A stretch of 64,000 bases of DNA from Eledone cirrhosa. Taxonomy: Eukaryota. The position numbers and the translations under genes were made by a program. This document shows positions 9,744-59,100 of this stretch, in pieces. The stretch is taken from the NCBI GenBank assembly GCA_964016885.1, contig OZ024744.1:65906001-65970000 (forward strand). Direction: 5' to 3'. Within the stretch, counting starts at the first letter, position 1, and every line of letters starts with the position of its first letter. The notes under the pieces are model-generated. The model saw nothing but the letters and a program-made list of their open reading frames with translations, did no database searches and was not told the origin of the DNA.

Positions 9744-10324
9744 TTCGTTTCTGAATTTGTTTAGCAAGATTCTTTATCTGAAATCGTGTGTTGAAACCGA
9801 TATTGTTATACTTTGGGAGGGTCATGTTGCCAATAAGAAACACACGCACCAGTTGCTTTCACTTCAATTTAATTTATTATATATTTATAAATTTACAAAT
9901 TTATAAATTTCTGGTTGGTTGGTTGGTTCCACAACCAGATAGTTGTTTATATATATATAGTCATAGTTCTTTCGTCACACACTCTGTGACCTCTTCAGTG
10001 ACTGGGGATTTCTTTCTTCGTTTCTGTGCCTTTCCTTTCTTCTATCCTACGCCATTTTTTGGCAAAAAATGGCGTAGGATAGAAGAAAGGAAAGGCACAG
10101 AAACGAAGAAAGAAATCCCCAGTCACTGAAGAGGTCACAGAGTGTGTGACGAAAGAACTATGACTATATATATATAAACAACTATCTGGTTGTGGAACCA
10201 ACCAACCAACCAGAAATTTATAAATTTGTAAATTTATAAATATATAATAAATTAAATTGAAGTGAAAGCAACTGGTGCGTGTGTTTCTTATTGGCAACAT
10301 GACCCTCCCAAAGTATAACAATAT
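9744..10324. mobile_element. Fold-back element family D (262-bp arms)
   Basis: Near-perfect inverted repeat 9800-10061/10063-10324; tail 9744-9799; TA flanks. Confidence 0.9.
10121..10165 (+). ncRNA. Minimal type-I hammerhead motif (family D); mirror copy on minus strand at 9959-10003
   Basis: AGTCA-CTGAAGA-gGTCACAgagtgTGTGAC-GAAA-GaaC-TA|TGACT. Confidence 0.75.
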
Positions 10325-10756
10325 ATATATATACATATATATATATATGTATATATATATATATAACAATATATATATATATATAACAATATATATATAT
10401 ATATATATATATAACAATATATATATATATATATATATATATATATAACAATATATATATATACACACATATATATATATATATATATATATATATATGT
10501 ATGTGTGTGTGTGTGTGTGTGTGTGTGTGTGTGTGTGTGTGTGTGTGTGTGTATAAATGTATATATATATGTATATATATGTATATATATATATGTATAT
10601 GGGTGTGTGGTGTGTATGTGTGTACGTGCATGCATATGCTAGTAAGTAAGTTTGTGTGTAAGACATGTTCTCCCTGGTAAAAATCTAGTATCATGCCAGA
10701 TGCATAAATTACTGTCTTAAGGAAGATGGCTGGTGTGTAAATAAATGTGAAAGTTG

Positions 10757-10980
10757 TGTGTAGTGTGGTGTGGTGTAGTGTAGTGTAGTGTAGTGTAGTG
10801 TAGTGTAGTGTAGTGTAGTGTAGTGTAGTGTAGTGTAGTGTAGTGTAGTGTGGTGTGGTGTGGTGTGGTGTGGTGTGGTGTGGTGTGGTGTGGTGTGGTG
10901 TGGTGTAGTGTAGTGTAGTGTAGTGTAGTGTAGTGTAGTGTGGTGTGGTGTGGTGTGGTGTGGTGTGGTGTGGTGTGGTG
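10757..10980. repeat. (GTGTA)n/(GTGTG)n pentamer microsatellite
   Basis: Direct inspection. Confidence 0.95.
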
Positions 10981-11311
10981 CGGGAGAGGTAGGGATGGGG
11001 ATTGAGCTAGGGATTCTATGTAGAGGGCACGTAAGAAGGGAGAAGTAGGGAGAAGAAGGGAGAAGCATCTAGTGAAGAAGGGAGAAGCCAAAAGAAACAG
11101 TAGCTATAGCAGCTGGTGCCCTAATTTCTTCTGGAAATACATGGAAGGTAGAGAGAGAGAGAGAGCGGGAGAGAGATGGTGAGAGAGAGAGAGGGAAGGA
11201 GAGAGAAGAGAGAGAGAGAAAAAGAAGGAGAGAGAGAGAGGGAGAGAGAGAGAGAGAGTAGGGAATGAGGAGCAGGGCATAGGTGTTGATAGCCGATGCA
11301 ATTGACTCAGT

Positions 11312-54789: not shown

Positions 54790-57700
54790 AAAAAAAAAAT
54801 TTATATCAGAAGATTTTATGTTTAAACACCTTTACACCTTTTCCCCCACATACATGGAAAAAAGGACCCAGAAAATTAAAATTGCAAATATTACACCAAA
54901 CATAAACGTCTGGTGGATTTTGACTGGCTTCATCGATTTCAATGAAGACACAATAATTTCAGTGGGAAAGTCCTCCAGAGGCACGTTCAATGGTACAAGC
55001 CTGGAAGTTCTGGTCCAAATGAGGCCAGAACAGATAGCTAAAATACCCCAACGTGTGCCTCTGGATGGAATTTCATATATAAACATTTCTGTTGAGGGTA
55101 GGCGGCCTTCATGTTACCACTGTTTAAGCAGTGATCACCTGAAGGCTTACTGTCCTCAGCTAGCCGCAAAAAAAGAGGCACTACTGCCAACACCCAAAAC
55201 AACAACACAACCACCACCACCACAACAACAACAACACAACCAAAACAAGAACAACAAACCAAACACAACCAAAACAAGAACAATAAACCAAACTGAAAGC
55301 ACAGTCCCACCCAACCCCACTCCATCTAAAACCACTGCAAAAACACCCACAAACACAACAGCTCCCCAAAACATACCCCTTCCAAATAACACAGACACCA
55401 CAACGGACGAGGCCCCCTCATCATCACCAAGTGACGATGAGGGAGAGTCTCTCCGTTCGAAAAGAAAGAAGAAAAGACACCACAAGAACAAAAAAGCAAC
55501 AAACATCACTACAAACATACAACCACCAACACAAACATTACAAACAAAAAACCCCCATCCCGAAAACAAAACCACGACATCACTCCAAACACAAACACCT
55601 ACAATAAAACGAAAGCTCACACAAGAACAACAGACAAAAACCAACACAACACAAGAACATTACACATACATAAACAGTGACAACAAAACTTTAATGGAGG
55701 TCATCTCCCACGACCCTTCGGTGAAAACCTAAGGGAAAACTTTTTTGAACTGTGTAGACAAACCTAATTTAAAGATGATTAGGGTCCCTACGGACACCTA
55801 TAAGTCTTTAAAGGAAAACTTTCCTCAGGATGTGGGTAATCATTGTTAAACCCATTAACCGCGTCCTTTTAAAATGTTTCCCCACCCACCCCAGACACCC
55901 CCATCCTACCAGACATCCCCTCCCCACCAAACATCTCGTCCTCACCCCGCCGGAAACCACAGAGTTACAGATTTGGGCCAAGGTGTTGGCAAAGAGGCTA
56001 TGCTTGTCGTCGAAAACCTGGTGGGAGTAGCGCAGACATGCGCAATCCCGACCAGGTCCATACACGACAACCTCCACCTCATGCGATACATCATAGAGAG
56101 GGTAGGGTGTAAACCCGGCTTCGGTGGGGCCCTGATCAACTTGGATCAGTCTAAGGCTTTCGATAGGGTTGACCATCGTTACCTGGATGCGGTGCTCGAG
56201 GCGGCAGGCTTCGGACCCGTGTTCAGGGGCTGGATTGCTGCAATGCACAACAGCAATATCTGCTCAAGGGTCAAGATGAACGGCTACCTCTCGGAGCCGT
56301 TCCATATCACGCGATCCATCCGACAGGAATACCCTCTCTCCTCCCTTCTGTACGTACTGACACTCGAACCACTACTGCGGAAGTTGGAGCTATTGCAGGG
56401 CAACCCTCTAGAACCGGGACTGCAGAAAGCGGCGTCGGCCTATGCCGACGACGTGACAGTAATGGTGTCGAGCACCTCGCAAATCGAGGAAGTTGGCACC
56501 TTACTGAAGGAATACGAAAGGTTCACAGGAGCGAAGCTACACCGGGACAAGTCCGTCCGTTTGCAACTCGGATCGTGGAGAGGCAAACCGATGCCTTCCG
56601 ATGGCGTCGTTGGACGCTGGACGGAAGGACCGGTGAAGCTGCTCAGGGTCTGGTTTGGTCCGGACCTTCAGGTGGAGAAGAACTGGAACGAAGTGACGGC
56701 CAAGGTGTTTGCACTCACCCAGAAGTGGGCCGAGTGCAAACTATCATTGAAAGGTCGAGCGGAGGTGGCGAACACTTTTATAGGGTCCGTCATCTACTAC
56801 CGCTTGACCGCCGTGCCTTGTCCAGCCAAAACGCTCACCAAAATGGAGCGTGCGCTCTTCCAATTCCTTTGGAAGAAAGGGGCTCCTTTGGTGAGAAGAT
56901 CCATCTGCTGCCCTTCAAACGGAGGGCTGGGGATGCCGTGGCTGACGATCCGCAGACATGCGCTCAGGCTGCGGCACATCCACGTATTCCTCACCGGACA
57001 ACCGGTGTGGGTCCCGTTCGTGAGGCGAACCTTCCCACGACTCGTCTCGCTGACCGAGCTGCAGTCCTGGGTCAAGCAAAGACCGGGGAAAATGGGCGAC
57101 TGGCACATCGAATGTACTCAGGCACTCACAGCCCTCTGGCATGCGGACCCGGCGATCAGTGGAGATGCCACTTCGTCATTCTATAGAGGGTTGGTCCGCA
57201 GCAAGTGCGACGACGCGCTCGGAGAAACTCTAGGCGTAGTGGAAGACGAACTGGCCAGTCTGTTCGGTAGGACCTTCCGCCGGGACCGATGGACAACTTC
57301 CAAAAGTCCCTGGCCTGGCAGTGCTACCGAGGAGCTCTACCAGTTCGAGACAAGCTTTACAGACAAGGGCGCCCGGGCATGGACCCTTCGAAAAAGATCT
57401 GTCCGAGATGCGTGCTAGACGAAGAAACCGTCGCGCACGCATTCGTACACTGCCCGGGCGTTACCGACCTGTGGGGCTATGTAGAACGACTATTGTCGCG
57501 GGTGGGACCAATCCGGTTGACCACCGAGTCCATTGTTATGATCAAACCGCCACCCTCCTTCAAAAACGAAGGAGAGGCGGTTTTCCTTTGTGTGATATCT
57601 ATGGCGAAAGAGGTTGTATGGTGGGCGAGGTTCAAAGGGCTGAGGTCAGACACCTTTCTCTCCGGCCAACAACTGATTCGTTTTTTCAAATACCACTTTG

Positions 57701-58056
57701 GAAGAAGAATGAGGATGGAGAGAGAGGTACTGTACCCCAGCAAGTTTTATGAAAGGTGGGGGAAAGTGGCGAGAATGGCCCGAGTGAATGGGCCTTCTCT
57801 CTATATCAGCCTGAGGTTGAAGAAAAAGAGGAAGAGAGGAAGGGGGTACTCACTCTTCGTACTCCTGGAGATGAGGGGGTGCACATTTTTTTTGGGGGGA
57901 ATGTGTTACCCATATGTAATGTCTCCCCCTATTGGGGAAAATCGACTAATTTTTAAATTGCATTTGTGATAGTATTTTACACGTTTTTATTGTATGTAAA
58001 CTTCGCCCTTTGTATTTGTCCCCTTCTTTTGTGCCCCTGTGGCTAATAAAGAAACA
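54790..58056 (+). mobile_element. Tx1/L1-clade LINE lacking the endonuclease region
   Basis: ORF1 CYHCLSSDHLKAYC; ORF1 end joined to mid-RT at about 55957; DQSKAFD, SAYADDV; C-terminal CPRC..H..C; ends AATAAAGAAA. Confidence 0.9.
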
Positions 58057-58794
58057 TCTTTGCCATGATGCTTTTGTCTTTGACAAGCTTGTACGTGATT
58101 CCCTTAATCTTGATGGCGCAATGACTATAGGAAATTCCGGCTCATTTTAGATATGGCGCTGAACTAACTCCTGAAGCTTTTCAACAGATAAGATTTTACT
58201 ATAAGTCTCTATTAACTCATCACATTTACATTTTAGCATTCTCATTTCATTGGCAAGTTCAACTATGATATTCATGACTGCAAGTACTATTTTTTCGTCA
58301 AAATCAAGGAAATCATTTCATGCCTGTAACCATAGTTTCTTCCTATCACTTCTCGTGTAATTTTCAGTTATTTTATCCCACGGTCCTTTGTCATTATCTA
58401 TGACATTCGTGATATGGTAACTTTACTAAAAAAAAAAAAAAAAAAAAAATATCCGATAGATAGCTTATCTTGGTGGTTTGTTTCAACAAGTTGTTTGAAA
58501 GAACGACAATGGTAGCAGGCGTTGATTGATATTAGAAATTACATGTTGATCTATACACTAGAATAAGAAAGTTGTGATTGGTATTAGGAAAACTACTTCG
58601 ACAGAAATACAGGTCTGAAGGGTGTCGACATTCTAGGGCAGAGTTTCTCAAACCTTTTTGTTTGTCTACCCGCCTCACGGCCACATAATACTTTCAGCAC
58701 CCCCACCCCCATTTCCAGAAAGACCTGCCTACACGCAAATTGTAAATAATATATAATAAATACAATCGTTAATTTATATATAATAAACAATATA

Positions 58795-59100
58795 ATTTCG
58801 TTTTTGAATTTGTTTTGCAAGATTTCTTATCTGAAAACGTGTGTTGAAACAGATATTCTTATACTTTTGGAGGGTTTTGTTTTCAAGATGGCGTAGGACA
58901 GAACAAAAGAGAGACACAAAATGAAAACCTAGTCACTGAGGAGGTCCCAGAATGTGTGACGAATGATATTTGACAATATATAAACAAGCATTCGGTTATC
59001 GAACCAACCAGCCGACTGGAAATTTATAATAAATTGAAATGAAAACCAACAGGTGCGTGTGTTTTTATTAGCAGCATGACCCTCCCAAAGTATAACAATA
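58795..59100. mobile_element. Diverged family D copy
   Basis: Inverted tail 58795-58875 plus arm with agtcaCTGAGGAggtcccagaatgtgtgacGAAT, ending cccaaagtataacaata. Confidence 0.75.

What the first reader, a model, noticed from the sequence alone, without database searches (positions are those of the whole stretch)
9744..59100. Family D: four insertions, one arm always ends at the same internal site
At 10324, 35018, 35410 and 59100 the tail-less arm ends at ...CCCAAAGTATAACAATA(T). The opposite arm continues with the same roughly 55-nt tail (cggtttcaacacacgatttcag...cagaaacga). The turn point differs each time: 262-bp arms, 50-bp arms, a spacer-containing pair, and a very short tail arm. Fixed outer ends with variable centres suggest a defined nick or priming site plus random fold-back during reverse transcription (inference). 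This is reminiscent of the PLE pLTR tail extension.
Basis: partly seen in the sequence, partly recalled or inferred. Interest (0 to 1): 0.75.

Follow-up and report, generated by a model that had tools for sequence, protein, structure and literature searches.

The report
Twin-primed Penelope retrotransposon mirror insertions
These four mirror-image repeats are real, truncated head-to-head insertions of a very abundant Penelope-like jumping gene, a known kind of structure; nearly every two-ended copy pairs one tailed arm with one tail-less arm, which likely means each insertion is written from two fixed start points on opposite DNA strands rather than by one copy folding back.

Summary
The four repeats are 3' ends (pseudo-LTR with hammerhead motif, plus tail) of a Penelope-like element (PLE). 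An intact 1,318-aa RT + GIY-YIG ORF exists elsewhere in the genome; its linker looks Nematis-type. Genome-wide, the core 21-mer occurs 29,693 times: 13,652 stop at the first AATAT, 13,518 run on into the tail. In 140 sampled loci, 86 of 88 two-ended insertions pair one tailed with one tail-less arm. Fold-back of one cDNA fails: the tail-less arm is the longer in 45 of 76 simple pairs, and 15 pairs share no sequence. The 'spacer' is element sequence. Turn points are not random: 31 of 232 arm starts fall in a 30-nt window at a likely transcription start (5 expected). Best reading: both target strands in (TA)n prime reverse transcription at two internal sites 60 nt apart, and the cDNA ends are joined. 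Inverted copies, a one-sided tail and two internal starts are published; I found no paper with the strict coupling. This scan reached the same model for other PLE families in this genome.

The parts
9740..10060 (-). Insertion 1, tailed arm (pLTR -255..0 plus 60-nt tail at 9740-9799), 3' end in (TA)n
   Evidence: 99% identical to the intact-ORF copy L173
10061..10063 (.). Insertion 1 junction: 3 inserted bases (GGC) between the two arm starts
10064..10324 (+). Insertion 1, tail-less arm ending at site 1 (AATAT), followed by (TA)n
   Evidence: no differences from partner arm at 213 compared positions
10120..10165 (+). Minimal type I hammerhead motif (CUGAAGA core, 6-bp helix II, GAAA, predicted cut after CUA at 10160); mirror copy on minus strand near 9958-10004
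   Evidence: motif scan; helices I and II in fold; no Rfam hit at gathering score; cleavage untested
34857..34966 (-). Insertion 2, tailed arm (-49..+60)
34965..35018 (+). Insertion 2, tail-less arm (-53..0); up to 4 nt overlap with the partner at the junction
35410..35878 (-).
35825..35878 (-). Last 17 codons and stop of the element ORF (PKLNRKYEWNSNITTYN*), end of the GIY-YIG domain region
   Evidence: same C-terminus as P0001
35659..35670 (-). YY1-like motif (reads CGCCATTTTG on +) at the arm-start hot spot; likely just downstream of the transcription start. Also at 10050-10074 and 58886-58895
   Evidence: sequence; GCCAT core and L1 Tf / Peg3 motifs in PMC11602158 (passages); function inferred
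35567..35613 (-). Hammerhead motif in the tail-less arm of insertion 3
35877..36149 (+). Insertion 3, tailed arm (-226..+60); 2-nt overlap (GG) with the partner
35903..35948 (+). Hammerhead motif in the tailed arm of insertion 3
36064..36144 (+). ORF start inside the pLTR and tail ([27 protein letters not shown]); site 1 AATAT at 36085-36089, tail follows
   Evidence: matches the N-terminus of P0002
58794..58881 (-). Insertion 4 (old), short tailed arm (-28..+60)
   Evidence: 86-90% identity to reference copies
58884..59100 (+). Insertion 4 (old), tail-less arm (-256..-1) with decayed hammerhead
   Evidence: 71-72% identity
18701..18760 (+).
   Evidence: 83-85% identity

Best explanation
The four repeats are 5'-truncated head-to-head insertions of an endonuclease-bearing Penelope-like retrotransposon, and each was likely made by two separate primings, one from each strand of a cut (TA)n target, at two fixed internal sites of the element RNA. 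Steps. [quoted passage not shown] (2, inferred; shown in vitro for a lizard PLE) Both target strands are nicked and extended. (3, ends shown, priming inferred) One strand primes at site 2 (+60) and gives the tailed arm; the other primes at site 1 (0) and gives the tail-less arm. Both sites read AATAT|CG, so each likely pairs with the TA target by a few bases. (4, shown as a pattern) The two cDNAs stop at largely unrelated lengths; a minority likely run off the RNA's 5' end near -265. (5, inferred) The two cDNA 3' ends are joined by 0-7 nt microhomology, short inserts or a natural palindrome, then filled in. (6, inferred, weaker) Both cDNAs likely come from the same pLTR of one RNA molecule.
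For: Identity: intact 1,318-aa ORF with RVT_1 (E 1e-4, below Pfam's cut-off) and GIY-YIG (E 2e-5, above it); partial tandems with read-through. End balance 13,652: 13,518 of 29,693; tail end into TA 15,750 against 476 read-through. Pairing 86 of 88 mixed, binomial p 2.5e-23 against 50%; also 6 of 6 two-ended long insertions among 20 read-through loci (read by eye). Tail-less arm longer 45, tailed longer 19, equal 12, no shared sequence 15, of 76. Arm lengths uncorrelated (rho 0.14, p 0.27, 66 pairs). Junctions: 34 of 64 have 0-7 nt overlap, mean 2.3 against 0.67 by chance; 26 have inserts; 4 overlap at natural palindromes. Arms agree at 501 of 511 subfamily-diagnostic positions; shuffled partners disagree at 44%. 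In 5 of 5 pairs with 460 nt or more of overlap the arms are closer to each other than to any other sampled copy. An arm starting in the hot spot pairs with an arm longer than -279 in 1 case, 5.0 expected, p 0.02. PMC11167929 (sections read): both strands cleaved and extended, two internal RT starts bracketing the tail, predicted dimer.
Against: 12 of 66 pairs have near-equal arm starts, 3.2 expected. Five lie at natural AT-rich palindromes and three at the hot spot, but four (L085, L122, L207, L214) are unexplained and would also fit fold-back. 69 of 157 events have no typed partner end (55 single-ended, 14 with a broken partner), so the rule is shown only for two-ended insertions. One tail-tail and one short-short pair exist. 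PMC11167929 found no difference in start site between strands and priming without homology to the target, unlike the AATAT match inferred here. Arm identity could also come from gene conversion or from one master being active at a time; only 7 of 26 pairs overall were closer than the nearest sampled copy. The overlap method takes the longest match over 59 reference copies, which inflates microhomology. No RNA start and no empty target site were seen.
Confidence: 0.75

Rival explanations
1. Fold-back: one cDNA primed at the tail end snaps back on itself, copies itself and is resolved at site 1 (the first reader's model; akin to endonuclease resolution of an intermediate in PMC8557442).
For: Excess of near-equal arm starts, 12 of 66 against 3.2; arms near-identical; short templated fold-backs at some junctions (L133, L003); window insertions 1 and 2 look like hairpins.
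Against: Needs the tailed arm to reach at least as far 5' as the other; the reverse holds in 45 of 76 pairs and 15 share no sequence. Even window insertion 2 has the tail-less arm 4 nt longer, and insertions 3 and 4 have it 228 nt longer.
Confidence: 0.07
2. Two primings on two different RNA molecules held by an asymmetric protein dimer; the arms look alike because of cis preference, one active master at a time, or later gene conversion.
For: Both arms often cover the same 1-2 kb (L109, L113, L121, L148), which on one RNA needs strand displacement; hot-spot/long depletion is only p 0.02, and L004 and L196 are exceptions; 19 of 26 pairs are not closer than the nearest other copy.
Against: Shared rare variants (24 over 9,242 positions) and closer-than-neighbour identity in all 5 long pairs; strict one-site-per-strand pairing is simplest if each site is used once per RNA.
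Confidence: 0.3
3. Self-priming on an antisense transcript (proposed in PMC3846280 for head-to-head PLE palindromes).
For: Palindromes at some junctions (L079, L086, L101, L167).
Against: The cDNA arm must be a copy of the RNA arm, so pairs without shared sequence (15 of 76) and asymmetry in both directions cannot arise; it does not explain two fixed ends that both match sense AATAT sites.
Confidence: 0.04
4. Two independent insertions into the same (TA)n tract, segmental duplication, or assembly artefact.
For: (TA)n tracts are shared targets of many families in the window; 2 sampled pairs are duplicates with shared flanks and 2 more look like local inverted duplicates.
Against: Arms abut directly with no TA between them; orientation and end type are coupled (86 of 88); partners share subfamily alleles; flanks differ.
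Confidence: 0.02

Closest known systems
Canonical EN+ Penelope-like elements: insertion unit with partial tandem, inverted 5'-truncated copy and one-sided tail (Craig et al. 2021, PMC8557442 Fig. 2; Arkhipova et al. 2013, PMC3846280; passages read)
   Same: RT plus C-terminal GIY-YIG with CCHH; pLTR includes the first codons of the ORF; hammerhead in the pLTR; head-to-head inverted copy; tail at one end; (TA)n bias; Asn-rich insert in the ORF as in Adineta Pen3/Pen4.
   Different: Tail is 60 nt rather than 30-40; those passages call the tail optional or 'often' at one end, here it is one-per-insertion in 86 of 88; their proposed routes (endonuclease resolution, antisense self-priming) do not fit the arm lengths; N-rich insert lies N-terminal to the RT.
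PAc (Poseidon from Anolis carolinensis) in vitro (Frangieh et al. 2024, PMC11167929; abstract, main text and part of methods read)
   Same: Two internal RT start sites in the ORF's 5' part bracket the tail; AT-rich target; both strands cut and extended; hammerhead near the ORF start.
   Different: Different clade (no linker Zn finger in Penelope/Poseidon); PAc starts are reported as not homologous to the target and not strand-specific, whereas here both sites are AATAT|CG and each insertion uses one of each.
Nematis clade of PLEs (alignment rows in Fig. S2 of PMC8557442, supplement part read)
   Same: CX4CxxC linker followed by a 7-residue spacer to the next Cys, as in all three Nematis rows; similar YIGET..ER..EH stretch.
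   Different: No tree could be built with named Nematis proteins; host is a mollusc (closest named hit Octopus vulgaris, 67%); ORF 1,318 aa.
L1 twin priming (Ostertag and Kazazian 2001, not held, recalled; described in passages of 10.1101/2024.12.14.628481 and the abstract of PMC2837659)
   Same: Two cDNAs primed from the two target ends and joined head to head.
   Different: In L1 it is a variant outcome, the first primer uses poly(A), the second site varies and the pieces are adjacent (recalled); here both sites are fixed and internal, there is no poly(A), and the arms usually overlap.

Membership tests
Canonical EN+ Penelope-like element | Single ORF with RT and C-terminal GIY-YIG endonuclease | tested here: met
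   P0001 1,318 aa and P0002 1,265 aa; RVT_1 E 1.1e-4 (under cut-off), GIY-YIG E 1.9e-5 (over cut-off) on sub-regions; whole protein gave 0 Pfam hits; YVDD aspartates invariant in 37 homologs
Canonical EN+ Penelope-like element | CCHH motif within the GIY-YIG domain | tested here: met
   VVYSIRC..QC..IVYIGET..INEH..YQHAKIEH read
Canonical EN+ Penelope-like element | Pseudo-LTRs from partial tandem insertion | tested here: met
   L173, L174, L178, L181, L183, L188; 476 exact read-through junctions
Canonical EN+ Penelope-like element | Inverted 5'-truncated copy and a tail at one end | tested here: met
   86 of 88 two-ended insertions; tail 60 nt, longer than the 30-40 nt in PMC8557442
Canonical EN+ Penelope-like element | Hammerhead motif in the pLTR | tested here: met
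   CUGAAGA / GAAA cores, helices I and II, minimal helix III, as described in PMC4209133; Rfam gathering search negative
Canonical EN+ Penelope-like element | Hammerhead self-cleavage | not testable with these tools
   needs an RNA assay; about 6 arm starts near the predicted cut are too few to tell from background
Canonical EN+ Penelope-like element | RT groups with PLE/telomerase RTs in a tree | not tested
   no named PLE proteins were returned by the tools; PDB search gave only weak RT hits
Nematis clade | CX2-5CxxC linker, reduced form | tested here: met
   C-x4-C-x2-C then 7 residues to the next Cys, the same spacing as three Nematis rows in Fig. S2, compared by eye
Nematis clade | RT phylogenetic placement | not tested
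Neptune clade | Long linker between CxxC and the GIY-YIG core | tested here: not met
   the two Neptune rows seen in Fig. S2 have about 25 residues there; this family has 7; further Neptune rows were not viewed
Hydra clade | CCHH absent, CxCX5C linker, DKT motif, under 3 kb | tested here: not met
   CCHH present, DKS, unit 4.1-4.4 kb (criteria)
Naiad/Chlamys | N-terminal endonuclease, no canonical hammerhead | tested here: not met
   EN is C-terminal; hammerhead present
Penelope/Poseidon clade | No linker Zn finger | tested here: not met
   linker CX4CxxC present
MITE / foldback DNA transposon | Symmetric terminal inverted repeats of fixed unit length | tested here: not met
   ends differ by 60 nt and arms run from a few bases to 3.9 kb into an RT ORF

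The most novel reading that the evidence does not exclude
Twin priming is the obligatory, normal route of PLE insertion: an asymmetric RT-EN dimer assigns each of two AATAT sites on one RNA molecule to one strand of a (TA)n target, the trailing RT displaces the leading cDNA, and priming at the mRNA's 5' pLTR mass-produces promoter-limited mini-palindromes. The tail would then be the footprint of that dimer.
Probability: 0.4. Interest if true: 0.65.

Novelty: new member of a known kind. Interest (0 to 1): 0.42.

Why it matters
How PLEs make their tandem and inverted ends is named as open in PMC8557442, and the one in vitro study ends before second-strand steps. This family gives sharp constraints: a near-strict one-tail/one-no-tail rule, arm lengths that exclude fold-back and antisense self-priming as the main route, two start sites with the same AATAT motif, and a likely transcription-start limit. 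Intact ORFs and about 30,000 exact end copies make the model directly testable. The structure itself is known, and the scan has drawn the same model from other families in this genome, so the gain is quantitative support rather than a new kind of element.

Tried and rejected
Rfam at gathering score: 0 matches in the window. Pfam on the whole ORF: 0 families; hits appeared only on sub-regions. PDB profile search: only weak bacterial RT hits. RNA evidence: the run search offered 7 runs, all assembled contigs, one RNA with share 0.08; contigs cannot show a start, so the transcription start and hammerhead cut stay untested. Genome-wide pattern counts either side of the hot spot (3,835 and 6,102) cover different subfamily mixes and are not comparable; discarded. 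Hammerhead cut as a stop site: about 6 arm starts at -155..-163, not convincingly above neighbours; rejected for now. A stem joining sites 1 and 2: z -2.2 in a window copy that includes target TA bases, z -0.95 in the read-through copy; inconclusive. A cap-derived G at hot-spot junctions: the G's seen come from the partner arm or local fold-back; rejected. First junction mapping by exact extension was disturbed by mutations and replaced. First reference L173 split alignments at a UTR indel and was replaced by L178. Target-site duplications cannot be read inside (TA)n; no relative genome is held for empty sites. Paper searches for the coupling: 'Penelope + twin priming' gave 3 unrelated papers; 'Penelope, virilis, inverted, 34 bp, tail' 0; 2023+ mechanism search 9, only PMC11167929 relevant. 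Subscription papers (Evgen'ev, Pyatkov, Arkhipova 2006) are not searchable; figure supplements of PMC11167929 gave no text hits and may bear on strand-by-site coupling.
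Full report
Observation. The motif CCCAAAGTATAACAATA occurs seven times in the window. Four occurrences run straight into flank, ending at 10324, 35018, 35410 and 59100; three exact ones and one diverged one continue into the tail. Against a natural reference copy, with 0 at the tail-less end, the four insertions are: tail -255 / short -255; tail -49 / short -53; short -454 / tail -226; tail -28 / short -256. The 'spacer' of the third is element sequence on the longer tail-less arm and ends the ORF. 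None of the four shares both flanks with any sampled event.

What it is. The window lies in a 3.0-Gb animal genome, likely an octopus: the closest named protein hit is labelled Octopus vulgaris, 67% identical. Sequence upstream of the arms in other loci encodes an RT and a GIY-YIG domain. Two of 20 read-through loci hold an unbroken ORF, 1,318 and 1,265 aa, with RVT_1 and GIY-YIG matches on sub-regions. The ORF starts 25 nt before the tail-less end, so the tail is 20 codons of the ORF's start. The pLTR holds a minimal type I hammerhead motif, predicted cut at -161, of the kind described in PMC4209133 (passages). A CX4CxxC linker with a 7-residue spacer and a CCHH motif match the Nematis rows, not the two Neptune rows seen, in Fig. 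S2 of PMC8557442 (by eye); Hydra, Naiad and Penelope/Poseidon criteria fail. No tree was built.

Outer ends. The core 21-mer has 29,693 exact matches: 13,652 continue TATA, 13,518 continue TC into the tail, 2,523 otherwise. The tail end runs into TA 15,750 times and on into the ORF 476 times. Both stop sites read AATAT|CG, 60 nt apart. In the sample 218 of 244 typed ends are followed by a TA run by a strict pattern, and most of the rest by an interrupted one.

Pairing. I took the first 100 listed places (197 up to C1:37.07 Mb, 148 regions) and fetched 140 loci, merging some regions and leaving out the last. They gave 167 events. I dropped 10 rows: 7 ends of a sister family and 3 duplicates. 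Of 157 left, 88 have two typed ends: 73 tail + short, 13 short + very short tail, 1 tail + tail, 1 short + short. So 86 of 88 are mixed (p 2.5e-23 against 50%), or 84 of 86 if two local inverted duplicates are removed. The other 69 are single-ended (55; 22 of them end in TA) or have a broken partner (14).

Fold-back test. In 76 simple pairs the tail-less arm reaches further 5' in 45, the tailed arm in 19, and 12 are within 20 nt; in 15 the tailed arm lies wholly inside the tail and shares nothing with its partner. One cDNA cannot template such a partner in either direction, and the same cases exclude self-priming on an antisense RNA (PMC3846280, passages). Arm lengths are uncorrelated (rho 0.14). 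Against this reading, near-equal starts are in excess, 12 of 66 against 3.2: five at AT-rich palindromes, three at the hot spot, four unexplained.

Junctions. Of 69 simple junctions 64 were resolved: 34 with 0-7 nt overlap (mean 2.3; chance 0.67; the method favours longer overlaps), 26 with 1-65 nt not assigned to either arm (true inserts, some templated from nearby arm sequence, or diverged arm ends), 4 with 18-38 nt overlap at natural palindromes. This is what end-joining of two cDNA ends would leave (inference).

Turn points. 31 of 232 arm starts fall at -279..-250, 5.0 expected from the flanking 120 nt (p 5e-15), 17 tail-less and 14 tailed. The window holds three such starts. The spot carries CGCCATTTTG or CGCCATCTTG on the other strand, like the YY1 motifs quoted in PMC11602158 (passages), where YY1 is said to dictate the L1 start; an NRF1-like palindrome lies 30 nt upstream (motif recalled). 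Penelope's promoter is internal to its repeat (PMC2377424, passages). I infer run-off at the RNA's 5' end; no raw RNA reads were available.

One RNA or two. In the first 100 loci and the window (58 pairs), partners disagree at 10 of 511 subfamily-diagnostic positions, close to the 1.7% background, against 44% when shuffled. All 5 pairs with long overlaps are closer to each other than to any sampled copy, and 26 pairs share 24 rare variants, but only 7 of 26 beat the nearest neighbour. Hot-spot arms pair with long arms once, 5.0 expected (p 0.02); among 29 score-selected loci, 6 of 6 partners of hot-spot tailed arms also start in the hot spot, while L004 is a near exception. This favours one pLTR of one RNA; gene conversion or sequential masters are not excluded.

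Comparison. [quoted passage not shown] PMC11167929 showed two internal RT starts bracketing the tail and extension of both strands, but no strand difference and no target homology. My searches found no paper stating the strict coupling or twin priming for PLEs; subscription papers are not covered. I recorded the two-primer reading before consulting the scan's notes (no sequence look-alikes); one search then showed unreviewed notes with the same model and the same promoter hot spot for other PLE families of this genome. They are not independent evidence.

Verdict. Confidence in PLE identity about 0.98, in two-primer origin 0.75, in the full one-RNA dimer version 0.4. Interest 0.42.

Noticed in passing
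window 13280-13630: Palindrome of another family with canonical CTGATGA/GAAA hammerheads (13547+, 13397-); the left arm appears to run about 30 nt further than the right, the same one-sided tail.
   Followed up: partly
window 8739-8864, 17654-17882, 40802-40938, 45817-46044: Four more short palindromes; the first three turn at or just 5' of a hammerhead-like core; likely other PLE families.
   Followed up: no
L101, L134, L157, L164, L200, L214, L227, L232: A sister family shares the last 28 nt before site 1 and a similar tail but has an unrelated upstream sequence.
   Followed up: no
L173:2653-6609 (P0001, about residues 250-430): Asn/His/Thr-rich repeat insert that varies in length between copies yet keeps the frame (1,318 against 1,265 aa), recalling N-rich inserts in rotifer PLEs.
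   Followed up: no
L161, L162: Two independent tailed arms begin at +4, just short of site 1, as if the first RT stopped at the second priming complex; L019 begins at +11.
   Followed up: partly
G000:C1:132947047-132947576: Twelve copies of the read-through junction at 46-nt spacing: a minisatellite made from the tail end.
   Followed up: no
L113, L158, L162, L201, L230: Extra ORF fragments in either orientation captured between the two arms, suggesting template jumps before joining.
   Followed up: no
window 35262-35310: Degenerate hammerhead-like stretch (CTGTTGA..GAAAC) between insertions 2 and 3, part of another repeat that also flanks L090, L211 and L212.
   Followed up: no
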